In this document: one piece after another, positions 14,508-25,807 of the stretch | Layout: every line of letters starts with the position of its first letter | Position numbering within the stretch: position 1 is the first letter of the stretch | Origin: an uncultured Ignavibacteriaceae bacterium | GTDB taxonomy: Bacteria > Bacteroidota > Ignavibacteria > UBA10030 | NCBI GenBank assembly: GCA_964473365.1 | Contig: CAYYOV010000007.1 | Coordinates: 5,015 to 69,014, forward strand | Reading direction: 5' to 3' | Length of the DNA: 64,000 nucleotides | Made by a program: the position numbers and the translations under genes | Notes under the pieces: model-generated | What the model was told of the DNA's origin: nothing | Seen by the model: only the letters and a program-made list of their open reading frames with translations | Database searches by the model: none

Positions 14508-15821
14508 CTACGCGGCCGCCTTTGGCGGGGCAAACCAGCGCAGGATCATCCATCCGATCCCTCCGGCAAGAAGCGATGCCGTGAGAATGCCTACCTTTGA
14601 GATCTCGAGCAGCAAGCGGTCGTCAAATGCCAGAGAAGCGACGAACAGCGACATGGTGAATCCGATGCCCCCGAGCCAGGCGGCCCCGTAGATGTGTCGA
14701 TACGTCGTCCCCGCCGGAAGGGCCGCAAAACCCAACCGCACTGACAACCACGCAAACGCTGTGATTCCGATCTGCTTGCCGATGACGAGACCGAGAATGA
14801 TACCCAGCGCGACGGGATGTCCGAGTGACATCTCGCTTGTGATCGTCACGCCCGCGTTCGCGAGGGCGAACACTGGCATGATGAAGTACGTGACCCATGG
14901 ATGGAGACGATGCTCAAGCTGCTGCATCGGCGATTCAACCTGGTCGCATGCATCCTCCAGCTCCTGAACGATGGCTTGTTGGTCGCCGGTCAAGCCCCCT
15001 TTCGATCGTGAGGGACTCGACTGGAGACGGTCCAGCAGATGTCGTCCACGGTGCAACAACGTCAACGGATCGATCGCGGGTCGCGCGGGGATCGTGAGTG
15101 CCAGGATCACTCCGGCGATCGTGGCATGAATGCCCGACGAGAGGACCGCCAGCCAGAGACCGACGCCGAGAATCACGTAGGGAAGTGGTGACCGCACGTG
15201 AGCGGCGTTCAGGGACATCAGGAGCGCCGTGATGACGCCCGCTGCGGCCAGTGCTGTCCACGACAATTGCGCCGTATAGAAGAACGCTATGACGAGCACA
15301 GCCCCGAGATCGTCGACAATGGCGAACGCCGTCAGAAACACCTTCAGGCCGAACGGCACGCGGGGTCCAAGAAGCGTCAGCACACCGATGGCGAAAGCGA
15401 TGTCGGTCGCCATTGGGATACCCCATCCGGGCGTTCCCGGTGTGCCGGCATTCAGCATCACATAGAGCCCGGCTGGCACGACCATCCCACCGATGGCGGC
15501 CATGATAGGGAACATGGCCTGCCGAACGCTCGACAACTCGCCGATGAGCAGCTCGCGCTTGATCTCCAGCCCGACCACGAAGAAGAAGATGACCATCAGA
15601 GCGTCGTTCACCCAATGGCCGAGCGAGTGCGTCATCTGATACGGTCCCGCGCCGACTGTGACCGGCAGATGCCAGAACGCGAAGTAGCTGTCGCGCCATG
15701 GAGAATTGGCCCAAGCCATGGCCACCACAGCACAGACGAGCAGGAGGATGCCGCCGATCGATTCCAGGCGGGTGAACCGCTGGAACTGCGTAAGAACCCG
15801 TGTGAAAATCTTTTCCTTCAT
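14508..15821 (-). CDS. nhaA: Na+/H+ antiporter NhaA
   Basis: ATDIAFAIGVLTLLG...VFLTAFAIVDDLGAVLVIAFFYT and the overall 12-TM layout are characteristic of NhaA. Confidence 0.9.
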   Translation of the reverse strand: MKEKIFTRVLTQFQRFTRLESIGGILLLVCAVVAMAWANSPWRDSYFAFWHLPVTVGAGPYQMTHSLGHWVNDALMVIFFFVVGLEIKRELLIGELSSVRQAMFPIMAAIGGMVVPAGLYVMLNAGTPGTPGWGIPMATDIAFAIGVLTLLGPRVPFGLKVFLTAFAIVDDLGAVLVIAFFYTAQLSWTALAAAGVITALLMSLNAAHVRSPLPYVILGVGLWLAVLSSGIHATIAGVILALTIPARPAIDPLTLLHRGRHLLDRLQSSPSRSKGGLTGDQQAIVQELEDACDQVESPMQQLEHRLHPWVTYFIMPVFALANAGVTITSEMSLGHPVALGIILGLVIGKQIGITAFAWLSVRLGFAALPAGTTYRHIYGAAWLGGIGFTMSLFVASLAFDDRLLLEISKVGILTASLLAGGIGWMILRWFAPPKAAA

Positions 15822-15956
15822 GGCGCGTGCGAGTACAGTGCTAATGATGAGGGATCGGTTGGGGGCACCGCGGCAGGCAGTAGCGGTCCCGAGCAGAGAA
15901 CAGAAATAGATGCGACAGGGTTCCTGTCAATTGAAGCCCGGACCGGGCAGGGACAT

Positions 15957-18173
15957 TCAATCGGAAAGCTCCTCGAGCAGTCGAACGACTTCCGCCTGGT
16001 GGCCAACCGTAAATCGGGCCTGCGTCGTACCGATCCCCACCTTCACCGTGAATGCGGGGGCCGGGAGGGCTTTGAACAGGTCCTCGTCGGTCACATCGTC
16101 TCCGGCCGAAAAGACGAAATCCGGCTGGACGAGGTCGATGATCTTCAGCGCCATCGTCCCCTTATGAACCCCGATGGGGCGCACTTCGACGATCTTGTTG
16201 CCACGGTTGACCTGCACGTCGTAGTTGGCTGTCAGCGTGGTCAGATGGTCGAACGCCTCCGCCGCCAACAACGTGCCGTGCTCGGGGTCCGACAGACGAT
16301 AATGCCATACCACCGAATGCTCCTTCTCCTCTACAAATGAGCCCGGCAACCGGTCGGCGTAGGACTCCAGGATCGGGATGATCCGCGACTTCCAATCACC
16401 CTTGCCGGGCGTCGCCAGCCGCCAATCACCCTGTGGCGGACGCCACCAGATCCCGTGCTCTGCCACCAGGTGCGCGTTCAAGCCTCCCATCCACTCGTCC
16501 AACGTGGAGCGTTCCCGGCCACTGACGATGGCCAGCGTGCTACCATTCGAAGAACTCAGGCGGTGGAGCGTGTTCATCAGTTCAGGTGTGGGCCGCGCCA
16601 GCTCCGGCCGTCGGACGAGCGGCGTCAGCGTTCCGTCGTAGTCAAGCAGCAAAAGTCTGCGACTCGCCGCCCGATACGCCTCGACGATCAGGCGGCGTGG
16701 CTCGGCGCTCATGTATTTTGTCGTGAACCGGTCCTGCAGGTCCGGGACCTGCACAGCCTGTTCGATGAAATCATGCGCCCATCGGACGACGTCATACCGT
16801 TCGATGCGGCGTCGCATCACTCGGTTCCGGCGCTGCTGCTCTTCGATCGGCATGGTGATCGCTTCGTACAGGGCTGACGCGATCTCTTCGCGGTCATTCG
16901 GATTGATGACGATCGCTTCGGCCAGTTCCTTCGCAGCACCCGCCATCTCGCTCAGGATCAGCACACCCCGGTCGTCCGGACGGCAGGCGATGTACTCCTT
17001 GGCGACGAGGTTCATCCCGTCACGTAACGGCGTCACGAGCGCGATGTCGCTCATCCGATAATAGGCGACCAGGTGGTCGAACCGAAGCTGCGTGTAGAGA
17101 TACACCACCGGCGTCCATCCGACCCGCCCGAACCGGCCGTTGATCTTCCCGACCATTTCTTCGATCTGCCGTTTCATGAGGTCGTACATCGCCACGCCGG
17201 CGCGGGAGGGGACCACGATCATCACCAACGCCACCTTGCCGTGGAGTTCCGGATGGCGCTCCAGGAGTGCCTCGAATCCCTCCAACCGGTTGAGGATGCC
17301 CTTCGTATAATCGAGCCGATCCACCGACAAAATCGAGGTGATGTCCCCGAGCGACTCTCGCAGCTGCGCGCTTTCGTCGCGAACGCTGACCCGATCCAGC
17401 GTCTTCCGGAACGATTCGACGTCGATCCCCATCGGAAAGGTGTCGACCTTCACCACGCGGTCTTCGACGACCACCTGCCCAAGTTGATGATCATGACCAA
17501 CGATGCGGAGGACGTTCCGCAGAAAGTTCTGAGCATACTCGTACGTGTGAAAACCGACCACATCGGCTCCCAGCAGACCCGTGAGGATCTCCCGCCGCCA
17601 TACGCCCGGCAGCGACCGGTAGATATCGTACTCCGGGAAGGGGATGTGGAGGAAGAATCCGATGCGCACGTTTGGGGCAAGCTCGCGCAGATACTGCGGG
17701 AGGAGCATGAGGTGATAGTCGTGGATCCAGACCACATCGCCAGGATGTGCGGTCTCCGCCACGATCGTGGCAAAGGCCTGATTCACCTTTCGGTACAGGT
17801 CCCACTGCTCAGCAGAATAGGTCGTATAGGCGGGGAAGGAATGGAAGAGCGGCCAAATGGTGGCGTTGCAGAAGCCTAGATAGAAGCTCTCCATATCCTC
17901 CCGCGACAGGAAGACGGGAACCGATCGATGCCGGTCCCACGCCATCTGCCGAACCTGATCGTGCTGGTCGTCGGGCACCGAGCCGCCCGGCCAGCCGATC
18001 CATACGCTTTCATCCCCCGGGCTGCCGCTCCCTCGCACGCTCGACAGGAAGGCTTTGAGGCCCGTGACAAGGCCGCCGACGCTTTCCGTCGTCGTCAGTC
18101 CAGACTCGCCCACAGCGATCGAGAACGGAAGTCGGTTTGAGACGATGATCAATCGGGATGCGTTCGTCATCAT
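15957..18173 (-). CDS. otsAB: Bifunctional trehalose-6-phosphate synthase (GT20, OtsA) / trehalose-6-phosphate phosphatase (HAD, OtsB) fusion
   Basis: The N-terminal ~480 aa carry GT20 motifs (LIIVSNRLP, WIHDYHLMLLP, FFLHIPFPEYDIYRSLP). The C-terminal ~250 aa carry the HAD phosphatase motif LLLLDYDGTLTP and the trehalose-phosphatase domain. Confidence 0.85.
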   Translation of the reverse strand: MMTNASRLIIVSNRLPFSIAVGESGLTTTESVGGLVTGLKAFLSSVRGSGSPGDESVWIGWPGGSVPDDQHDQVRQMAWDRHRSVPVFLSREDMESFYLGFCNATIWPLFHSFPAYTTYSAEQWDLYRKVNQAFATIVAETAHPGDVVWIHDYHLMLLPQYLRELAPNVRIGFFLHIPFPEYDIYRSLPGVWRREILTGLLGADVVGFHTYEYAQNFLRNVLRIVGHDHQLGQVVVEDRVVKVDTFPMGIDVESFRKTLDRVSVRDESAQLRESLGDITSILSVDRLDYTKGILNRLEGFEALLERHPELHGKVALVMIVVPSRAGVAMYDLMKRQIEEMVGKINGRFGRVGWTPVVYLYTQLRFDHLVAYYRMSDIALVTPLRDGMNLVAKEYIACRPDDRGVLILSEMAGAAKELAEAIVINPNDREEIASALYEAITMPIEEQQRRNRVMRRRIERYDVVRWAHDFIEQAVQVPDLQDRFTTKYMSAEPRRLIVEAYRAASRRLLLLDYDGTLTPLVRRPELARPTPELMNTLHRLSSSNGSTLAIVSGRERSTLDEWMGGLNAHLVAEHGIWWRPPQGDWRLATPGKGDWKSRIIPILESYADRLPGSFVEEKEHSVVWHYRLSDPEHGTLLAAEAFDHLTTLTANYDVQVNRGNKIVEVRPIGVHKGTMALKIIDLVQPDFVFSAGDDVTDEDLFKALPAPAFTVKVGIGTTQARFTVGHQAEVVRLLEELSD

Positions 18174-19393
18174 GGCGCCAGGTTAACGACATCTTCCTGA
18201 TGAAAGAGCGACAAGAACAGCAACAGATAGTCCTTGATGTGCCGGGTGATCAGATAGTTCTCCCGTATATGATCGCGTCCCCGCTGGCCAAGTCGCTGCG
18301 CAAATTCGGGCTCCGCCAGGAGTTGCTTGATCCAGCGGGCCGTTCCCTCGACGGAATGTGTCAGGATGCCCGAGAATTCATGCCGGATCTGTAGTGGGAT
18401 CCCGCCCACGGCGCCGGCGATCACCGGCTTGCCCTTCCAGAGCGCCTCCGCCACGGTCAGTCCGAATCCTTCGCGCAGCGACTTCTGCAAAATGACGTCC
18501 GACCCGCGCTGGAGCGCATTGATCTCGATATCGCTGGCAGGAGGCAAGAACAGCACGTGAATGTCGGGATCCTTGTCCGCCTCCTCCTGCACCTGTGCCA
18601 TGATGGCGGGTCCTTCCGGGTCGTCCGTCGCGCCGCCGCCGGCCAGGATCAATTGCACGTCGGCGTGACGCTTCACGAGCTTGTAGGCGGCGATGACGCC
18701 GAGAGGGTCCTTCAGATAGTCGAACCGTGAGATCTGCGTCACGATCGGCCTGGTCCGTTCGATGCCGTACCGTTCGAAGACGGCGTTGACGGTCTCGTCG
18801 GGCAGGTCGCGGTTCTTGTCGGCCAGGGGATCGATCGACGGTGAGATCAGCACTTGGGGGATCGACAGCTTCGCGGCGAACGCCGGCGCTGAGAAGACGG
18901 CCCGGTCGTACTGCCCGATGTAGCGTTCGAGGAACGACCAGACCCGATCCTTCGGCTGCGAGGAGTCGATATGACATCGCCAGAGCCAGTTGCCGCCCCG
19001 GGACGAGCGTTGTTCGACGAGGACGATCGGTTGCGGATCGTGGACGAACACAATATCGCCGAATTCCATCGTCGCGGCATTCTGACGGTTCACTTCAATG
19101 AAGAGGTCGAGCTCGTCATCGCTGATGTCGACCGGAACGCCGTGCATGCCGTTGTGGAACTTCTTTGTCACGACGAAGAATCGTTCATTCCCCTTGATGA
19201 CGTCCCATCGTGCCTTCACCCCGAGCTGTTGTAGCAGCGGGATCATGCGGGTCAGGATCTCCGCCACGCCGCCGCCAACGGCGGTCGAATTGATGTTCTG
19301 TACCGTGCGTCCGTCCAGGGCCCGAGCGAGGATGCGCAGTTCGTCGACGGCCGTCGGGCCGACGATCGGGATGTAGTCTTCAAGTGCGGTCAT
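18170..19393 (-). CDS. treT: GT4 glycosyltransferase most similar, from memory, to trehalose glycosyltransferring synthase TreT (NDP-glucose + glucose -> trehalose)
   Basis: Blocks NSTAVGGGVAEIL, VHDPQP, WLWRCHID, SPSIDPL, DDPEG and REGFGLTVAEALWKGKPVIAGAVGGIPLQI follow the order and spelling I recall for archaeal/bacterial TreT. The GT4 assignment is firm. The specific TreT call needs a database check. The stop overlaps the otsAB start (ATGA). Confidence 0.6.
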   Translation of the reverse strand: MTALEDYIPIVGPTAVDELRILARALDGRTVQNINSTAVGGGVAEILTRMIPLLQQLGVKARWDVIKGNERFFVVTKKFHNGMHGVPVDISDDELDLFIEVNRQNAATMEFGDIVFVHDPQPIVLVEQRSSRGGNWLWRCHIDSSQPKDRVWSFLERYIGQYDRAVFSAPAFAAKLSIPQVLISPSIDPLADKNRDLPDETVNAVFERYGIERTRPIVTQISRFDYLKDPLGVIAAYKLVKRHADVQLILAGGGATDDPEGPAIMAQVQEEADKDPDIHVLFLPPASDIEINALQRGSDVILQKSLREGFGLTVAEALWKGKPVIAGAVGGIPLQIRHEFSGILTHSVEGTARWIKQLLAEPEFAQRLGQRGRDHIRENYLITRHIKDYLLLFLSLFHQEDVVNLAP

Positions 19394-20021
19394 ACGGCCT
19401 CAGCAGGATGAGGAGACGGCGACGGAGCGTCTCCAGGGTGTAGGCGTACGGGTCAAGCGACCGCACGTCGTTCGCGAGGGCGTCGAGTCCCAGACCGCGG
19501 AACCAGGCCGAGAAGTCGTTCTCTCCCCGCCCGAGGCGCAACCGGGCGTCGAACATGTGATGGTAGAGCGAGCTGACGCTCACGTGCTGCAGGGCAGACA
19601 CGAACTCCCGCAGGGACCGGGCGGTAAATGGGGTCGGAAATACGTACGTCTGCGACGACATGAAATGGAATTCGACGCCATCCGGGGCCGTAAGTCGTTC
19701 GCCCCCGTCCGCGACGTGTCGCTCCAGGACCCCGACGAGCGCTGCGCGGACTCCGGCGATCGTGTCATACTGGACGATGTCGATGCTCGACAGCTGTTCG
19801 GCCAGGGCGCGGTCGTTGAGGCCCGTCTTGGCCCACACCGCGAAGTCGTTCGACGGCTCCGGAGTGAAGAAGTGGTGGCGCTGGAGGAAGTGGTGGGTAT
19901 GGTGGTAAACGGAGCTGTCCGGTACTTTCTGGAGGCCCGCCAGGAGCTGGCGAGCGGTCGTTGCGCGGACAGCCAGGAGAAAGGTCAGATCCTGCTTGGA
20001 ATAGAATCGGAATTCTGTCAT
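19380..20021 (-). CDS. Uncharacterised 213-aa cytoplasmic protein made of two tandem homologous ~90-aa halves (His-rich SS[VL]YHH ... NDF[AS]xW...GL.D.ALA motif in each); no recognised family
   Basis: ATG at 20021 is preceded by GGAGG and overlaps the mscS stop (ATGA). The 3' end overlaps the treT start by 14 nt. The two halves align by eye: LTFLLAVRATTARQLLAGLQKVPDSSVYHHTHHF...NDFAVWAKTGLNDRALAEQLSSID against LREFVSALQHVSVSSLYHHMFDA...NDFSAWFRGLGLDALANDVRSLD. The longer ORF start at 20207 is Arg-rich and lies inside mscS. Confidence 0.6.
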   Translation of the reverse strand: MTEFRFYSKQDLTFLLAVRATTARQLLAGLQKVPDSSVYHHTHHFLQRHHFFTPEPSNDFAVWAKTGLNDRALAEQLSSIDIVQYDTIAGVRAALVGVLERHVADGGERLTAPDGVEFHFMSSQTYVFPTPFTARSLREFVSALQHVSVSSLYHHMFDARLRLGRGENDFSAWFRGLGLDALANDVRSLDPYAYTLETLRRRLLILLRPYDRT

Positions 20022-21112
20022 GAGGTTCCTCCGCTTCCGCCGCCGGCCGCCGCACCTGTTGCAGCCGCGTGCTGCACGATGAGGGTGCGCGTCGGGAAGG
20101 CAAACTCGATCCCCGCCGCCTGCAACGCGCGCGCCAAGCCGATATTGATGGCTTGCTGTGCGTCCATGTACGCGTTGTAGTCGGGCGAGAGGACGTAGTA
20201 GACGCACTCGTACACCAGGGCCGATTCTCCGAATTCCTTGAAGTGCGCCCGGTCGAATCGTACACCCGCCTGTTGCTCGACGACCTGCCGGGCGATGCCT
20301 GAGATCTTGGCCATCATGTCGGCCGGCGTCTGGTAGGTGACGCCGAACTGGAACAGGATCCTCCGTTCCTGCATCCGCTTGAAGTTTCGGATGCGGCTGC
20401 GGAGGAGGTCCGCGTTCGAGACGATGAGCTGTTCGCCCGACAACGATCGGATCCGAGTCGTCTTGAGGCCGATATACTCGACCGTACCGGCGAGCTGGTC
20501 AACGACGATGAAATCGCCGATGACGAACGGTTTGTCGAGCACGATCGACAGCGATGCGAACAGGTCGCCCAGGACATTCTGCAGGGCCAGGGCGACGGCG
20601 ATACCACCGATCCCCAGTCCGGCGATGAGGCCGGTAATGTCGACCCCAAGATTCCCGAGTCCAACGAGCACCACGATCGACCACAGCGCGAGCCGGGCCA
20701 CGAATCCGATGGCCGTCATGGTGGCCGTCGTCGTGGGAACTCCGGAATCATCCTGGATCGAGCGTTCCAACCAGAACGACACGGCACCGTTACCCCAGAG
20801 ACCCACCTGCAGCAGCATCGCCAGCCATAGCGTCTGTTGGAGCGCCGATTCCATTGCTGGACGCAGCACCAGAGCGTTCGACCCGATGACGGCTGACATC
20901 ACGAACAACGTCAGCGTGCTCGTGCGGCTGAGCACCTCCGCTAGGAGGTCGTCGACCTTCGTATCGGTCTTCTCGGCCAGCTTCTTCAGCTTTCGGACGA
21001 GGATCCGGCTCGCCATCAGGAAAATGACGAACAGGAGGGCCGTCGCACCGATGGTGATCGCCCAGGTCAGCGGATCGTTCCCAAGAAAGCTTTTGCTCAG
21101 CAAGGATTTCAT
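20018..21112 (-). CDS. MscS-family mechanosensitive ion channel
   Basis: Three N-terminal TM helices, then the conserved MscS pore/beta domain (GLGIGGIAVALALQNVLGDLFASLSIVLDKPFVIGDFIVVDQLAGTVEYIGLKTTRIR). Confidence 0.85.
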   Translation of the reverse strand: MKSLLSKSFLGNDPLTWAITIGATALLFVIFLMASRILVRKLKKLAEKTDTKVDDLLAEVLSRTSTLTLFVMSAVIGSNALVLRPAMESALQQTLWLAMLLQVGLWGNGAVSFWLERSIQDDSGVPTTTATMTAIGFVARLALWSIVVLVGLGNLGVDITGLIAGLGIGGIAVALALQNVLGDLFASLSIVLDKPFVIGDFIVVDQLAGTVEYIGLKTTRIRSLSGEQLIVSNADLLRSRIRNFKRMQERRILFQFGVTYQTPADMMAKISGIARQVVEQQAGVRFDRAHFKEFGESALVYECVYYVLSPDYNAYMDAQQAINIGLARALQAAGIEFAFPTRTLIVQHAAATGAAAGGGSGGTS

Positions 21113-21151
21113 GAAAGGTCGATAGTTCCGGTTGATATCACGAGCACATCG

Positions 21152-22744
21152 TCAACGACCAGCTTTGCCCGATGGATAGTATGCCACCTCATAGAGGTCC
21201 GACCGACGATCCTGCCGGTTCAACACCATGCCGGTCTGCCGGCTGGGCTTGAGCAGCTCAAGGTCCATGTCGTCCACAATGATTGTTTCAATGTTCGGGG
21301 TCGCTTCCGAAAGTACGCCGTCACGCGTAAACGGAATGTCCGACGGCGTGAGGATCGCCGATTGCGCGTAGTGGACGTCGATGTTCTCAACCGAAGGAAG
21401 GTTTCCCACGCTCCCAGCCAACACCGCATAGACGTTGTTCTCTACGCACCGCGCTTGGGCACAGTAGCGAAGCCGCATGTAGCTGTACCGTTCTTCAACA
21501 CTGAACGGCACGAAGATGATCTGCGCGCCGCGGTCAGCCATGATACGTGTCAGCTCCGGGAATACGATATCGTGGCCGATCTGGATGCCGATCTTGCCGC
21601 GATCCGTGTCAAAGACCGCTACTTCCGAGCCGGGCTTGAGTCCCCACCAACGGCGCTGGTCGGGGGCGACGTGAAGCTGATATTGCTTGGCCAGGGTTCC
21701 ATCGCGCCGGAACAGAAACGCCACATTGTACAGATTGTCATCCTCGACGACGAAATGCGTCCCCCCAACGATGTTCACGTTGTACTTCACGGCCAACCGT
21801 GTGAAGAGCTCCAGATAGGCCGGAGTGTATTCCGAGAGCTTCCGCATAGCCAACGCGGGTCGGTCCTTGGGAAGGAAGGTCAGCCACTGGGTGGTAAGTT
21901 GCTCCGGGAAGAGCACGAAGTCGGTCTTGTAATCGGCAGCCGCGTCGACGAAGTATTCGCACTGAAGCGAGAATTCTTCAAATCCGGTGACCATCCGAAG
22001 CTGCATTTGTACGGCACAGCCCCGCACCGGGGCGAACATCGTGAGCCGTTGATTCGGGTCCGGGACGTAATCCAGGTTCGTCCACTCGAGGAACGTCGCG
22101 TACCCCTGGGACTCGGCGTCGCTCGACAGATAGTTCGGGATGAGTCGCTTGAGGACGAACCCGTTCGACAACTGCGTCGTCAAGACCGGATCGATCAGGA
22201 CCTTATGGACGACCTTGTCCACGTACTCCCGGGCCGTCATGGTCTTGGCATGCTTGCCGTACCCCGGGATCCGCCCGCCCAGGATGATGCGCATCAGGTT
22301 GTGCTCACGGGCAAGCTGCTTGCGGGCTTCGTAGAGGCGACGGGCCAGCCGGAGACCCCGGTACTCCGGGTCGACCATGATCTCGATGCCATAGAGCGTA
22401 TTGCCGTTCGGCGAATGATTGCGGATGAATCCCGCATCGGCGATCTCCGTCCAGCTGTGCCACTCATGGTACAGGTCGAAGTCCAGGATCAGGCTGTTGG
22501 ATGATGCGACAATCTTCCCCTGGTGCTCGATACAGATCTGTCCCTGCGGAAACAGCGCGAGCTGGCTTTCGATCTGCGGGCGGGACCACGGTTTCATGCC
22601 CGGAAAGCACTTCTCCTGCAGCTCGGTGATCTGATCGTAGTCCTCCAGCCGGAGGGGCCGAACCAGCACTTTTCGCTCAAAATCCTTCAGATCGTCGTTT
22701 GCCACAATGTCACCTGCTGGCGGTGGTTGGTCGGTAGGCGGCAC
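21152..22744 (-). CDS. Bifunctional GNAT N-acetyltransferase / carbon-nitrogen hydrolase (nitrilase superfamily) fusion protein
   Basis: The N-terminal ~200 aa have a GNAT fold with motif A (VDPEYRGLRLARRLYEARKQLA). The C-terminal ~300 aa have the CN-hydrolase catalytic triad context (FPE...; K...; AQARCVENNVYAV). Confidence 0.7.
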   Translation of the reverse strand: MPPTDQPPPAGDIVANDDLKDFERKVLVRPLRLEDYDQITELQEKCFPGMKPWSRPQIESQLALFPQGQICIEHQGKIVASSNSLILDFDLYHEWHSWTEIADAGFIRNHSPNGNTLYGIEIMVDPEYRGLRLARRLYEARKQLAREHNLMRIILGGRIPGYGKHAKTMTAREYVDKVVHKVLIDPVLTTQLSNGFVLKRLIPNYLSSDAESQGYATFLEWTNLDYVPDPNQRLTMFAPVRGCAVQMQLRMVTGFEEFSLQCEYFVDAAADYKTDFVLFPEQLTTQWLTFLPKDRPALAMRKLSEYTPAYLELFTRLAVKYNVNIVGGTHFVVEDDNLYNVAFLFRRDGTLAKQYQLHVAPDQRRWWGLKPGSEVAVFDTDRGKIGIQIGHDIVFPELTRIMADRGAQIIFVPFSVEERYSYMRLRYCAQARCVENNVYAVLAGSVGNLPSVENIDVHYAQSAILTPSDIPFTRDGVLSEATPNIETIIVDDMDLELLKPSRQTGMVLNRQDRRSDLYEVAYYPSGKAGR

Positions 22745-22842
22745 ACCCCTAGAGAATACGATGGGCGTCGATCACCTCCGACGCCCTGCGCTCCATTAGT
22801 AATAAAGGGTTTCTGCGGAAACATACAAGGGTTGGAGGCCGA

Positions 22843-23706
22843 TCATGCCGGCCCCATGGTTCTGCCCAGCCAGCCGAGCAATCCCGATGCGCTGGCGCTC
22901 CCGCCACTGATGGGAATGTCGAAGAGGCGGGCGGCGTTCTGCGACATGATCTTTTCCAGGTCGGCGGTGGGAATGTTCAGTTCCTCGATGAACTCGAGAT
23001 ACGACCGCATCGACGAGATCGGCCAGTCGGTACCGAACAGGACCTTCGTCGGCTCCATGCCATAAACGAGCATCTCCTGCAACTGATCGCGCATGTAGCT
23101 CTCGAAGCGGTCGGTGAAATCGCCGAGCACGAGTCCCGAGATGTCGGTGTAGACGTTCTCGTTCTTATAGACGACCTCCATCGTGTCCTGAAACCACGGG
23201 TTGCCGAGGTGACAGATGATGATCGAGACGTCCGGATGGTCCACGGCCACTTCGTCAACTTCAAGCGGATGGGCGTACTTCAGCTTGCCTTTGGCCGAGA
23301 ACGTATCGCCCGTGTGGATCATGACCGGAATTCGGTGCTCAGCCGCGAACCGAAAGACCGGCCGAAGCTTCGGGTCGTGCGGATAGTACGGCTCGTATCC
23401 CGGATACAGCTTGAGACCACGCACGATCCTTTCAGCCACCAGCGGCCGCAGGGCATCGAGCATTTCGGGCTGGAAGGAGGCCGCCCCGATGCCGGCGACC
23501 ACGGAGAACTCCTTGTGACCCCGGACAGCTCCGGCCACTTCGAGTGTGGACGGACGTCCAGGAAGATCCTTGAAGGAGGTGAGGATCACTGCGTGGTCCA
23601 CCCGGTTCATCTGCATCTCGCGACGAAGGTCGTCAAGCCGATGGGGCAGGGCCGGACGGTCTTCGTGCTCATACCAGTTCACGTGCACATGACAATCGAT
23701 GATCAT
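22843..23706 (-). CDS. Amidohydrolase-2 family (TIM-barrel metal-dependent hydrolase)
   Basis: MIIDCHVHV...GLKLYPGY...MIHTGD...IIICHLGNPW...FGTDWP. The HxH, His and Asp metal ligands are in canonical order. I chose the ATG at 23706 because the longer start (23763) would overlap the upstream gene by 43 nt. Confidence 0.65.
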   Translation of the reverse strand: MIIDCHVHVNWYEHEDRPALPHRLDDLRREMQMNRVDHAVILTSFKDLPGRPSTLEVAGAVRGHKEFSVVAGIGAASFQPEMLDALRPLVAERIVRGLKLYPGYEPYYPHDPKLRPVFRFAAEHRIPVMIHTGDTFSAKGKLKYAHPLEVDEVAVDHPDVSIIICHLGNPWFQDTMEVVYKNENVYTDISGLVLGDFTDRFESYMRDQLQEMLVYGMEPTKVLFGTDWPISSMRSYLEFIEELNIPTADLEKIMSQNAARLFDIPISGGSASASGLLGWLGRTMGPA

Positions 23707-23720
23707 TGCGGTTCCGTTCC

Positions 23721-24386
23721 CTAGCGGTTCTTCCAGATGTTCTCGAGGACCTTCGCAGCCCAATCACGTCCCCCCAATCCAAAGGCGAGGGCTAGCGCAA
23801 GACAGAGACCGCCGAAGGCGATCTGAAAGGCCGACACGAGGATGGCGCCGCCGATCGAAAGCTGCTCGAGTGCGACCGTGAGGACGAAGAAGAGCACGGC
23901 GTAGTACGTGAGGCCGGCGATGAACGGGACGCCCTTGATGCCGATATTGTTCAGGTATCCTGAGGTCACCGTTCGAATCAGGTTGGCGAAGAGGCTCCCG
24001 AAGATCAACACGAGCACGGCTCCCAGCACGTTCGGCAAATAGCTCACGATCTGTTGGATCAGGTCGGCCGCCGCGCTGACGCCAAGGCTGTGAAGCACAG
24101 CCAGCAACATGGTGAGCAACAGGACCCAATAGATGATATTCGCGAGGATGGTCACGAACGTGAATGAAACGCCTCCGCGCAGCAAGAAGTTCTCGATGCC
24201 AGCCTTCTCTGCGAGCGCATCAACCCGGGCCAATCGGAGCACCCGCAGCGTAGCGCGTCGAACAAGCTTCGCCACGATCCAGCCTCCGATCAGCAGGACG
24301 ATCCCCGCGATGAGGCGGGGCAGCAACTGCAGGACCTGGATCCAGAAATCCTTCAATGACTCCCAAACGGTCGTGATTTCACCCAT
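23721..24386 (-). CDS. Conserved TM-helix repeat protein (small MscS-like/TM_helix family membrane protein)
   Basis: 221 aa with ~5 TM helices and an internal helix repeat (LPRLIAGIVLLIGGWIVAKLV / LPNVLGAVLVLIFGSLFANLI). This architecture is typical of the 'conserved TM helix' family linked to mechanosensitive channels. Confidence 0.5.
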   Translation of the reverse strand: MGEITTVWESLKDFWIQVLQLLPRLIAGIVLLIGGWIVAKLVRRATLRVLRLARVDALAEKAGIENFLLRGGVSFTFVTILANIIYWVLLLTMLLAVLHSLGVSAAADLIQQIVSYLPNVLGAVLVLIFGSLFANLIRTVTSGYLNNIGIKGVPFIAGLTYYAVLFFVLTVALEQLSIGGAILVSAFQIAFGGLCLALALAFGLGGRDWAAKVLENIWKNR

Positions 24387-24410
24387 GTTCGTGCCTCCTT
24401 CGAATGATGT

Positions 24411-25625
24411 TCAGGCCCGTGATTGAGCGGGTCGAACGCGCTCGGCCAAATAGACGAGGATGGCCGTCGCAATGATGCTGAGAAACACCACGCCATAGAC
24501 CAGGTCCTGCATCTGCCCGCCTCGCTGCAGACCAAGCTGGATCGGAAGCCCAGCCAGAACGGCGGCGGCGGTACCTTTCGGGATCAGCACCGACATCGAG
24601 ACCAGATCGTCGCCGGTCCCGCCGAGGATCCGTGTCGCGAGCTGCACGCCCAGCACCCGGGCCAACAGGAGTCCTCCAACCAGCGCCAGACCGGTCGCGA
24701 GCGCGACATAGTCTCCCAATTGGAGTGAGATGCCGAGATAGACAAAGAAGAAGGTCTTCACCAGGAAGACCGCTTCGCTGAAGAAGAGCTTCTCAGTTTC
24801 ACTGTGCGCGAGCGGGGACAGTTTGGTCCGTTGATGGATCCAGGGAAGGTCCAACGACGCGACGTTGCCAAGGATGATGCCGAACGCCAGCGCGGCAATG
24901 GGACCACTATATCCCAGGAACTCGGTCAATCCGTAGACGATGAAGACCGCCGACGGGGTCAAGAAGATAGCGTTCCGCAACTGTCGTACCCTATCGAGCG
25001 TCAACGACCAGACATAGCCTGAGATCGCCCCCAGCACGATCGCAAAGACGAACGATGCGATGAGTTGGCCAATCAGGAGACCGACCGACATCCGGCCCAT
25101 CTCCAGCGTTTGCAGCAATGCGAGCGCGATGACGATCGAGATCGCCTCTCCGATCGGGGACTCGAGCAACAATGTGGTCCGCCCAGAATCGGAGATCTTC
25201 ATCTGCCGGGCCAACGGGATGACGACCGAGGGAGCCGGTCCGGCGAGGATCGCCCCCACATAGAGAGACTCAAGCGTCGAAAGCGGCAACGTCAGCACTA
25301 GGGCGCCCGAGAGAAGAGCCCATGCGATCACGTACGTAAACACGGTGACGAGGATCGTGTTCTTCCATGCCTTCCGAAGTTCGGCGATGCTGATCTCGAG
25401 TCCGCCCTCGAACAGGATGATGACGAGAGCGATCGTCGTGAAGACGCTGCCGACCTTCCCAAAGTCCTGAGGGCGGACGATACCGAAGGCGGGTCCGAGC
25501 ATGACCCCGATCAGGATCAGCCAAAGAACATCCGGCACGCGGGTACGCTCAAACACCGCTACAAATGCGTGGGCCAGAAAGACCAGTCCGCCGATGAACA
25601 AGATCACAGTTGCCAGATCATGCAT
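24411..25625 (-). CDS. Monovalent cation:proton antiporter (CPA1/CPA2-type Na+/H+ exchanger)
   Basis: ~12 TM helices. The exchanger-family motifs LWLILIGVMLGP ... ALVIILFEGGLE ... PIGEAISIVIALALL are present. The ATG at 25625 is preferred over the longer ORF start at 25670. Confidence 0.8.
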   Translation of the reverse strand: MHDLATVILFIGGLVFLAHAFVAVFERTRVPDVLWLILIGVMLGPAFGIVRPQDFGKVGSVFTTIALVIILFEGGLEISIAELRKAWKNTILVTVFTYVIAWALLSGALVLTLPLSTLESLYVGAILAGPAPSVVIPLARQMKISDSGRTTLLLESPIGEAISIVIALALLQTLEMGRMSVGLLIGQLIASFVFAIVLGAISGYVWSLTLDRVRQLRNAIFLTPSAVFIVYGLTEFLGYSGPIAALAFGIILGNVASLDLPWIHQRTKLSPLAHSETEKLFFSEAVFLVKTFFFVYLGISLQLGDYVALATGLALVGGLLLARVLGVQLATRILGGTGDDLVSMSVLIPKGTAAAVLAGLPIQLGLQRGGQMQDLVYGVVFLSIIATAILVYLAERVRPAQSRA

Positions 25626-25807
25626 GCGCGATGTGCTCGTCGATTGACCGGGGTTGTCGGAGGCCGGCACTCGGCCGATTCATCTCCCTGTGATAATAGG
25701 GAGTTTTCCCTCTAATGAGAATCCCGCACGCAATGGCTCGTCCGCTCTCTGGTAATTGCCTGCGGCAAATCGTACACTTCAGACAGACGATTTACCAGGA
25801 GCGCCGT

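What the first reader, a model, noticed from the sequence alone, without database searches (positions are those of the whole stretch)
19380..20021. Uncharacterised internally duplicated protein fused at both ends to the trehalose/MscS osmotic genes
This 213-aa ORF overlaps the mscS stop with its own start (ATGA) and has a GGAGG RBS. Its 3' end overlaps the treT start by 14 nt. It is therefore almost certainly co-translated with a mechanosensitive channel and a trehalose synthase. The protein has two tandem ~90-aa homologous halves that share L..F..AL..V..SS[VL]YHH ... NDF[AS]xW...GL.D.ALA..[LV].S[IL]D. It has no TM segment and no motif I can place in a known family. Its His-rich paired repeats and its position suggest a sensor, regulator or accessory subunit of an osmotic-shock module. 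Given that placement, this is the best candidate in the window for an undescribed component.
Basis: partly seen in the sequence, partly recalled or inferred. Interest (0 to 1): 0.78.

Follow-up and report, generated by a model that had tools for sequence, protein, structure and literature searches.

The report
OrfY-type partner protein of trehalose synthase
The ORF is a real, conserved gene of an already catalogued family (Pfam DUF5752, crystal structure 4CSO of Thermoproteus tenax OrfY); its function is still untested, and it almost always sits directly in front of the trehalose synthase gene treT, so it is an ordinary family member that still offers a useful lead.

Summary
A 213-aa ORF lies on the minus strand at 19380-20021. 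Its start overlaps the mscS stop (ATGA), GGAGG lies 6 nt upstream, and it overlaps treT by 14 nt. Its two halves are homologous (hhalign 99.2%).

- **TreT is the constant partner.** A TreT-type glycosyltransferase follows directly in 80/80 genome loci from many bacterial and archaeal phyla, and in 8 of 9 further contexts, including T. tenax orfY-treT.
- **MscS is facultative.** It is in the cluster in 33/80 loci. In 11 of those it is fused to DUF5752, which replaces the channel's C-terminal domain.
- **Other links.** Maltokinase::DUF5752 fusions also exist.

Best reading: a non-catalytic partner or regulator of TreT acting at the protein level, possibly a trehalose-pathway sensor domain. I found no support for the "transcription factor" label of the PDB entry. 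It is a new member of a known family whose function remains open.

The parts
19380..20021 (-). DUF5752 / OrfY-family gene, 213 aa plus stop codon
19698..20021 (-). Repeat 1 (residues 1-108): long beta-hairpin followed by five helices. Carries the Y39-H-H41-T-H-H and N58-D-F-x-x-W63 motifs.
   Evidence: Secondary structure of the model, conservation, repeat alignment.
19383..19697 (-). Repeat 2 (residues 109-213): the same beta-hairpin and helices. Carries the Y-H-H155, R162, N168-D-F-x-x-W173, D190-P-Y and R200 motifs.
20018..20032 (-). Junction with mscS: ATGA stop/start overlap (20018-20021) and Shine-Dalgarno GGAGG (20028-20032), 6 nt before the ATG.
   Evidence: Read directly.
19380..19393 (-). 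14-nt overlap between the DUF5752 stop and the treT start.
   Evidence: The same 14-nt overlap is the commonest junction in related loci: 25 of 75 loci, and most of the others overlap by 4-23 nt.
18170..19393 (-). TreT-type trehalose synthase (GT4), 407 aa, the obligate partner gene.
   Evidence: PF21269 TreT_GT1 E 2.7e-53 and Glycos_transf_1. NF041139 TreT gives 358 bits, below its equivalog cut-off of 775. 47% identical over 395 aa to the TreT encoded next to orfY on a Thermoproteus contig whose OrfY is 99% identical to 4CSO.
20018..21112 (-). MscS-type mechanosensitive channel, 364 aa, with all three MscS domains. It is the facultative partner.
   Evidence: PF21088, PF00924 and PF21082.
15957..18173 (-). 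Bifunctional trehalose-6-phosphate synthase/phosphatase (OtsA-OtsB fusion, TPSP), 738 aa. Overlaps treT by 4 nt.
   Evidence: PF00982 and PF02358. NF011071 gives 977 bits, above its cut-off of 634.

Best explanation
**Identity (shown).** The ORF encodes a member of the DUF5752/OrfY family. It is a soluble, roughly 24-kDa protein made of two homologous ~100-residue repeats, each a long beta-hairpin followed by helices. The repeats pack as a pseudo-dimer in a fold so far seen only in T. tenax OrfY.

**Partnership (shown by comparative genomics).** It is the dedicated partner of a TreT-type trehalose synthase (NDP-glucose + glucose -> trehalose). The two genes form an invariant, translationally coupled cassette in the order DUF5752 -> treT. 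That cassette has been dropped into different trehalose gene clusters in bacteria and archaea. In this window the order is mscS - DUF5752 - treT - otsAB.

**Mechanism (inferred).**
- The protein is made in step with TreT and binds it as a non-catalytic regulatory or adaptor subunit. It does not act on DNA.
- In some lineages the same domain is welded to the cytoplasmic side of an MscS-like channel or to a maltokinase, and in one lineage it sits beside TreY/TreZ instead of TreT. The simplest unifying idea is therefore a trehalose-pathway sensing or coupling domain.
- It would read a pathway metabolite (trehalose itself is the obvious candidate) or the osmotic state, and adjust synthesis (TreT), onward conversion (maltokinase) or release (MscS) accordingly.

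Identity and partnership are near certain (about 0.97). The protein-level partner/regulator mechanism is the part that carries the stated confidence.
For: **Identity**
- Pfam, PDB sequence match and fold matches.
- T. tenax WP_014126154 / UniProt G4RMV3 has the same sequence as the 4CSO chains and is annotated DUF5752.

**Partnership with TreT**
- A TreT homologue (55-75% identical to the window's) lies immediately downstream on the same strand in 80/80 genome loci. These span Ignavibacteriota, Bacteroidota, Chloroflexota, Elusimicrobiota, Omnitrophota, Planctomycetota, Aminicenantes, Nitrospirota, Methanotrichaceae, Hadesarchaea and others.
- The junctions mostly overlap, and the commonest overlap is 14 nt, as in the window.
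- The same pair occurs in the T. tenax genome with a 4-nt overlap and on other Thermoproteus contigs.
- It also occurs in divergent members P0127, P0124, P0128 and P0112.
- Locus L088 carries two separate DUF5752-TreT pairs, so each TreT paralogue has its own DUF5752.

**Protein-level role**
- Natural fusions always place DUF5752 at the C-terminus of a pathway effector.
- MscS (TM + beta-domain)::DUF5752, in which DUF5752 replaces the MscS C-terminal domain, is found in 11/80 loci and in at least 5 (up to 14 by length) of the top 150 family clusters.
- Maltokinase::DUF5752 is found in three clusters, P0200, P0206 and P0196.
- MscS is in the same cluster in 33/80 loci; TPS/TPP is in 69/80.
- Conserved polar and aromatic residues (His, Asn, Asp, Trp, Arg, Tyr) recur at equivalent positions in both repeats, as expected for a ligand or partner site.

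**Against a DNA-binding role**
- Family members are acidic to neutral, median pI 6.2.
- No DNA-binding fold was found.
- No shared operator-like palindrome was found upstream.
Against: - No physical interaction with TreT, MscS or any ligand has been shown, here or in any paper I could read. The mechanism rests on gene order and fusions.
- No DUF5752::TreT fusion was seen among the top 150 family clusters. Fusions to whatever gene lies upstream could partly be accidents of tight gene packing.
- From my own memory of Kouril et al. 2008 (not readable here), recombinant T. tenax TreT is active on its own, so DUF5752 is not needed for catalysis.
- The depositors of 4CSO named the molecule 'transcription factor'. 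They may hold unpublished evidence.
- One lineage (P0115) has DUF5752 with no TreT within 7 kb.
Confidence: 0.55

Rival explanations
1. Transcription factor, as the PDB entry 4CSO names it. DUF5752/OrfY would bind DNA and control transcription of treT and the surrounding trehalose genes, perhaps in response to a sugar.
For: The molecule name in 4CSO is 'ORFY PROTEIN, TRANSCRIPTION FACTOR'. In T. tenax and many bacteria it is the first gene of its operon, a common position for autoregulators. A two-fold pseudo-symmetric protein could in principle read a palindrome.
Against: - Pfam finds nothing but DUF5752.
- Median pI is 6.2, and OrfY has a net charge of about -5.
- The domain is fused to the cytoplasmic end of a membrane channel in 11/80 loci, and to a kinase. 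That is hard to reconcile with a DNA-binding job.
- No shared palindrome or 8-mer occurs above shuffled expectation in 20 upstream regions. This is a weak test.
- Overlapping stop/start coupling to TreT implies near-equimolar synthesis with an enzyme, which is unusual for a regulator of transcription.
Confidence: 0.15
2. Primarily an MscS accessory or gating subunit. DUF5752 would dock on the cytoplasmic vestibule of the channel and tune the opening or selectivity for trehalose release. On this view the link to TreT is secondary.
For: The ATGA overlap with mscS in the window. MscS lies directly upstream in 10/80 loci and is fused in 11/80, with DUF5752 taking the place of the channel's own C-terminal domain. 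A further 12/80 loci have MscS in the same cluster.
Against: 47/80 loci have no MscS within the sequence held. T. tenax orfY-treT has none nearby. P0127 and P0128 are bare DUF5752-TreT pairs. TreT is present in 80/80 loci.
Confidence: 0.12
3. An enzyme of trehalose metabolism with a new fold. Examples would be one that supplies free glucose to TreT, or one that modifies or hydrolyses a pathway intermediate, using the conserved His/Asp residues, possibly with a metal.
For: Invariant His41 and His155, Asp169, Arg162 and Arg200, and nearly invariant Asn, Asp, Tyr and Glu. An orphan fold cannot be excluded from catalysis. It always sits inside trehalose clusters.
Against: There is no similarity to any hydrolase, phosphatase or transferase. 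Appending it to a channel and to a kinase is the pattern of regulatory domains rather than enzymes. The conserved residues are duplicated symmetrically across the two repeats rather than forming one obvious catalytic motif.
Confidence: 0.08

Closest known systems
OrfY of Thermoproteus tenax (PDB 4CSO; WP_014126154; UniProt G4RMV3)
   Different: Only about 31-32% identical. In T. tenax the pair stands alone as orfY-treT, away from the msc-gt-tpsp operon. In the window the pair is embedded between mscS and the TPSP gene, with overlapping junctions on both sides.
Pfam PF19027 (DUF5752), a family of unknown function
   Same: Full-length match far above the gathering score. All 128 relatives found by sequence search carry the same Pfam assignment.
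   Different: None in architecture; it is the plain single-domain form. About 13% of the best-scoring clusters are longer proteins with DUF5752 at the C-terminus; the ten scanned are MscS, maltokinase or TPP fusions, with one unassigned.
T. tenax msc-gt-tpsp trehalose synthase operon (Zaparty et al. 2013, PMC3634074)
   Same: A mechanosensitive channel, a GT4 glycosyltransferase and a fused TPS/TPP enzyme in one operon. In T. tenax the GT activates TPSP by complex formation, and the channel is proposed to release trehalose on hypo-osmotic shock.
   Different: The T. tenax operon has no DUF5752. Its GT is described as PimA-like, not TreT. I did not compare TTX_1305 with the window's TreT. The window looks like the two T. 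tenax units (orfY-treT and msc-gt-tpsp) merged into one.
MscS-family channels with an added C-terminal ligand-binding domain, for example bCNG channels with a cyclic-nucleotide-binding domain (from my own knowledge)
   Same: An MscS pore and beta-domain followed by a soluble cytoplasmic domain that could modulate gating. This is the architecture of the MscS::DUF5752 fusions.
   Different: In the window the two are separate proteins. No ligand is known for DUF5752. In the fusions DUF5752 replaces the native C-terminal domain rather than being added after it.
Non-catalytic regulatory subunits of the yeast trehalose synthase complex, Tsl1/Tps3 (from my own knowledge; the complex is mentioned in PMC3634074)
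   Same: The idea of a non-enzymatic protein that assembles with and regulates trehalose-synthesising enzymes.
   Different: No homology. Tsl1/Tps3 are inactive TPS/TPP paralogues, whereas DUF5752 has an unrelated orphan fold.

Membership tests
DUF5752 (PF19027) / OrfY | Full-length match to the family HMM above Pfam's gathering score | tested here: met
   217.5 bits against a cut-off of 23, E 1.7e-64, residues 2-206 on profile positions 2-206 of 208.
DUF5752 (PF19027) / OrfY | Fold of the solved family member 4CSO | tested here: met
DUF5752 (PF19027) / OrfY | Two tandem homologous repeats carrying the YHH and NDFxxW motifs | tested here: met
   BLASTP of the halves gives E 7e-11. hhalign gives 99.2%, E 1.5e-19. 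The motifs are invariant or nearly so in 33 sequences.
DUF5752 (PF19027) / OrfY | Gene lies directly upstream of a TreT-type glycosyltransferase on the same strand | tested here: met
   14-nt overlap in the window. 80/80 genome loci. The T. tenax genome.
Transcription factor (label of PDB 4CSO) | A recognisable DNA-binding domain or fold (HTH, winged helix, ribbon-helix-helix, zinc ribbon) | tested here: not met
Transcription factor (label of PDB 4CSO) | A conserved operator upstream of its own operon | tested here: inconclusive
   No palindrome (5-nt arms, 0-12 nt spacer) or 8-mer is shared above shuffled expectation in 20 upstream regions. The test is crude and the taxa are diverse.
Transcription factor (label of PDB 4CSO) | Sequence-specific DNA binding in vitro or in vivo | not testable with these tools
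   Needs a gel shift, a footprint or ChIP. No paper in the held library reports it.
MscS accessory or regulatory domain | Physical linkage to an MscS core in at least some lineages | tested here: met
   MscS beta-domain::DUF5752 fusions occur in 11/80 loci and in many protein clusters.
MscS accessory or regulatory domain | Constant co-occurrence with an MscS gene | tested here: not met
   47/80 loci have no MscS within the flanks held, and there is none beside T. tenax orfY. MscS genes elsewhere in those genomes were not examined.
TreT trehalose synthase (the neighbouring gene 18170-19393) | TreT-specific N-terminal domain plus a GT1 C-terminal domain; equivalog-level score | tested here: inconclusive
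   PF21269 E 2.7e-53 and PF00534 are met. NF041139 (Thermococcales TreT equivalog) scores 358 bits, below its cut-off of 775. The protein is 47% identical to the Thermoproteus TreT. Enzyme activity was not tested.

The most novel reading that the evidence does not exclude
DUF5752 is a new kind of small-molecule sensor domain specific for trehalose, a two-fold symmetric sugar read by a two-fold pseudo-symmetric protein. It would feed back on TreT. When bolted onto MscS-like channels in place of their C-terminal domain, it would make a mechanosensitive channel answer to the cell's compatible-solute level. That would give a direct molecular link between solute synthesis and emergency solute release.
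Probability: 0.2. Interest if true: 0.75.

Novelty: new member of a known kind. Interest (0 to 1): 0.4.

Why it matters
How cells set and sense their trehalose level is poorly understood in bacteria and archaea. DUF5752 is widespread (about 1,500 clusters at 50% identity) and has a solved structure of unique fold. It is tied to the TreT synthase in nearly every locus sampled, and in several lineages it is built into a mechanosensitive channel or a maltokinase. Its function has nevertheless never been tested in any paper I could find.

If it is the regulatory subunit or sensor that couples trehalose synthesis to release, that would add a missing control element to osmoadaptation models such as the T. 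tenax msc-gt-tpsp model. It would also correct a database label ('transcription factor').

The finding in this window adds nothing new to the family itself. Its value is the clean four-gene arrangement, with three overlapping junctions, that illustrates the coupling.

Tried and rejected
**Tried, with no result**
- Literature. No paper in the held library mentions DUF5752 or PF19027, or OrfY together with trehalose or T. tenax. The CASP10 target-highlights paper (PMC4072496), which I recall describes OrfY, and Kouril et al. 2008 are not held. What I say about them is from memory.
- AlphaFold database fold search (afdb50): the library was not available.
- Exact look-up of the window's protein, and of a 95%-identical cluster member, to identify the source genome: not on record.
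- Search for a conserved operator upstream of DUF5752 where it is the first gene: nothing above chance.

**Planned but not run**
- A linker-joined DUF5752+TreT AlphaFold run was prepared, with 64 pairs extracted, but not submitted. It also reports no interface measure.

**Rejected readings**
- 'Not a real gene' is rejected by the conservation across phyla.
- The upstream GTG that would give 275 aa (19380..20207) is rejected, because homologues start at the MTEF position.
- An apparent 630-aa DUF5752::TreT ORF in L027 is an ORF-calling artefact; Pfam sees only TreT in that frame.
- 'Membrane protein' is rejected.
- 'Metal-binding His-rich protein' is not a supported feature. Only H41 and H155 are invariant, and the other histidines vary, for example in OrfY.
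Full report
**1. What is in the sequence**

The finding's coordinates hold an ORF on the minus strand, 19380..20021, encoding 213 aa (MTEFRF...PYDRT). Reading directly gives the following junction details:
- The ATG is the reverse complement of 20019-20021.
- The ATG overlaps the TGA of the upstream mscS gene (20018-20020), giving ATGA.
- GGAGG lies at 20028-20032, 6 nt before the ATG.
- The stop (19380-19382) lies 11 nt inside the next gene, whose ATG is at 19391-19393. This is a 14-nt overlap.
- That next gene in turn overlaps the following one by 4 nt (18170-18173).

The alternative GTG start, which would give 275 aa, is not used by homologues; they begin at the MTEF position.

The two halves of the protein are homologous. 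BLASTP of residues 1-108 against 109-213 gives E 7e-11 at 37% identity. A profile-profile comparison of the halves, built from 33 relatives, gives 99.2% probability, E 1.5e-19, over 97 columns.

**2. The neighbours**

All of the following genes are on the minus strand:

| Coordinates | Gene |
|---|---|
| 24411-25670 | Na+/H+ exchanger |
| 23721-24386 | Small membrane protein with the PF05552 mechanosensitive-channel helix |
| 22843-23763 | Amidohydrolase |
| 21152-22744 | GNAT + carbon-nitrogen hydrolase fusion |
| 20018-21112 | MscS, with all three MscS domains |
| 19380-20021 | The ORF under study |
| 18170-19393 | TreT-type GT4 glycosyltransferase (PF21269 + PF00534) |
| 15957-18173 | Bifunctional trehalose-6-phosphate synthase/phosphatase (NF011071, 977 bits) |
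| 14508-15821 | NhaA |

The only convincing terminator-like hairpin follows NhaA, at 14467-14444. The setting is an ion and osmotic homeostasis island.

**3. What the protein is**

It is not an orphan.
- Pfam places it, full length, in PF19027 (DUF5752) with 217.5 bits, E 1.7e-64. NCBIfam has no model for it.
- Searching PDB sequences finds 4CSO, 'OrfY protein, transcription factor' from Thermoproteus tenax, at E 5.9e-24 over residues 4-198.
- An AlphaFold2 model built on 33 relatives is confident (pLDDT 91.3, pTM 0.82). It shows each repeat as a long beta-hairpin followed by helices.
- The T. tenax protein is WP_014126154 / UniProt G4RMV3. NCBI annotates it 'DUF5752 family protein' and UniProt 'uncharacterized'.

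The family is large. A profile search of 1.84 billion representative proteins finds 1,477 clusters at E <= 1e-3 and 877 at E <= 1e-10. A scan of one genome per species found at least 576 loci in many bacterial and archaeal phyla.

**4. Gene neighbourhood across genomes**

I took the 80 best genome loci and searched them with the window's proteins.
- **TreT.** In 80 of 80 loci a TreT homologue, 55-75% identical to the window's, starts within a few bases of the end of DUF5752 on the same strand. With longest-ORF starts, most junctions overlap. The commonest overlap, in 25 of 75 loci, is the same 14 nt as in the window.
- **TPS/TPP.** Homologues are present in the flanks of 69/80 loci. The gene immediately upstream of DUF5752 is a trehalose-phosphate phosphatase and/or GT20 synthase in roughly 30 of the 69 loci scanned (25 and 21 Pfam matches, overlapping in the fused enzymes).
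- **MscS.** Using an HMM built from the MscS sequences of these clusters, MscS is fused to DUF5752 in 11 loci, directly upstream in 10, elsewhere in the cluster in 12, and not seen in 47.

The DUF5752->treT cassette appears in many arrangements:
- mscS-DUF-treT-tpsp, as in the window (for example L001, L003, L019, L024, L067)
- tps-mscS-DUF-treT-tpp
- tpsp-DUF-treT
- tps-DUF-treT-tpp
- DUF-treT-tpsp
- the bare pair

More distant members tell the same story:
- In the T. tenax genome, orfY and treT overlap by 4 nt and stand alone. The same holds on other Thermoproteus contigs.
- P0127 and P0128 are bare pairs.
- P0124 has tps-tpp-DUF-treT-mscS-like.
- P0112 has tpsp-DUF-treT.
- L088 holds two separate DUF5752-TreT pairs.
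- The single exception is P0115. There DUF5752 follows TreS-Mak, GlgB, TreZ-like and TreY-like genes and precedes ion transporters, MscS and a TPSP gene, with no TreT within 7 kb. It is still a trehalose cluster.

The window's TreT is 47% identical, end to end, to the TreT encoded next to a 99%-identical OrfY on a Thermoproteus contig.

**5. Fusions**

About 20 of the top 150 family clusters are longer proteins, and DUF5752 is always at their C-terminus. Ten of these longer proteins were scanned.
- **MscS fusions.** Five of the ten scanned proteins carry an MscS pore and beta-domain (PF00924) followed within about 8 residues by DUF5752, and nine more have lengths that fit this architecture. 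DUF5752 therefore takes the place of the channel's own C-terminal domain (PF21082). This architecture is typical of the Chloroflexota/Dehalococcoidia loci, and TreT still follows directly.
- **Maltokinase fusions.** Three clusters are maltokinase::DUF5752; P0200 scores 388 bits on TIGR02457, above its cut-off. In L088 the order is TreS - GT4 - Mak::DUF5752 - TreT.
- **Phosphatase fusion.** One cluster, P0225, is a trehalose-phosphatase joined to a partial DUF5752 and may be a gene-calling artefact.
- **No TreT fusion.** No DUF5752::TreT fusion was seen.

**6. How it most likely works**

Three things are shown:
- The gene is real.
- The protein is an OrfY/DUF5752 family member.
- Its constant genomic partner is TreT, and its frequent but optional partners are MscS and TPS/TPP.

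The rest is inferred. Overlapping stop/start coupling, kept across phyla, points to synthesis in fixed proportion with TreT and hence to a protein complex. The paired duplication in L088 points to cognate pairs.

A domain that is free-standing next to one enzyme, and in other lineages is appended to the cytoplasmic end of a channel or to a kinase of the same pathway, behaves like a regulatory or sensing module. The conserved residues are largely polar and aromatic (His41, Asn58, Asp59, Trp63, His155, Arg162, Asn168, Asp169, Trp173, Arg200) and are mirrored in the two repeats. That suits a ligand or partner site.

I therefore favour a non-catalytic TreT partner that regulates or localises the enzyme. 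Trehalose sensing is an attractive but untested extension.

Against the 'transcription factor' label:
- There is no DNA-binding fold.
- The pI is acidic to neutral, median 6.2.
- The domain is fused to a membrane channel.
- No shared upstream palindrome was found (a weak test).

I cannot exclude the label, because the depositors may have had data that I could not read.

**7. Comparison with what is known**

The closest known thing is OrfY itself: same family, same fold, same position before treT.

The window's four-gene unit resembles a merger of two T. tenax units. One is orfY-treT. The other is the msc-gt-tpsp operon, in which a GT4 protein activates TPSP by complex formation and the channel is proposed to vent trehalose after hypo-osmotic shock (PMC3634074). 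I did not test whether the T. tenax GT is related to TreT.

From memory, Kouril et al. 2008 already noted a conserved gene organisation for the unidirectional TreT pathway. I could not read that paper.

**8. Verdict**

The item is a new member of a known, structurally solved but functionally untested family.

What this analysis adds is the strength of the TreT linkage, the MscS and maltokinase fusions, and the case against the transcription-factor label. The interest is moderate.

Noticed in passing
L036:7254-8633, L047:7215-8630, L065:7251-8633, L060:707-2080, L079:2045-3376 (also P0130, P0138, P0059): MscS-like channels in Chloroflexota/Dehalococcoidia and others whose C-terminal domain is replaced by DUF5752. 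TreT still lies directly downstream. This is a channel architecture I have not seen described.
   Followed up: partly
L088:3354-5591 (P0200); also P0206, P0196: Maltokinase (TIGR02457)::DUF5752 fusion proteins. In L088 the cluster reads TreS - GT4 - Mak::DUF5752 - TreT - GT2 - PF05552 protein - second DUF5752 - second TreT.
   Followed up: partly
L084/L085:7001-7645 (P0115): A divergent DUF5752 with no TreT nearby. It sits after TreS-Mak, GlgB, TreZ-like and TreY-like genes and before cation transporters, MscS, NhaP, LysR, CLC and TPSP. It lacks the otherwise conserved D-P-Y motif near the C-terminus.
   Followed up: no
window 21152-22744 (-): A 530-aa fusion of a GNAT acetyltransferase and a carbon-nitrogen hydrolase lies 40 nt upstream of mscS. 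Homologues (65-71% identical) lie near the same trehalose cluster in L002 and L008. It could belong to the osmotic module, for example in making an N-acetylated solute, but I did not examine it.
   Followed up: no
window 23721-24386 (-): A 221-aa membrane protein with two copies of the PF05552 'mechanosensitive channel conserved TM helix'. A similar small protein precedes the second DUF5752 in L088 (8050-8751).
   Followed up: no
window 14508-25670 (-): Nine consecutive minus-strand genes form an ion and osmotic island: two Na+/H+ antiporters, two mechanosensitive-channel-type proteins and the trehalose genes. A promoter-like site lies at 25721-25693 and a strong terminator-like hairpin at 14467-14444.
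   Followed up: partly
L030, L033, L034, L035, L037, L048, L057, L064: In these loci the DUF5752-treT cassette is inserted between separate tps and tpp genes (tps-DUF-treT-tpp). This hints that TreT and DUF5752 may work together with the TPS/TPP enzymes, as the GT does in T. tenax.
   Followed up: no
window 18170-19393 (-) and its homologues in L001-L080: The TreT partner is much more conserved across phyla (55-75% identity) than DUF5752 (42-60%) or TPSP (about 45-57%). It scores well below the NCBIfam Thermococcales TreT equivalog cut-off (358 against 775 bits), so it is a distinct TreT clade.
   Followed up: partly
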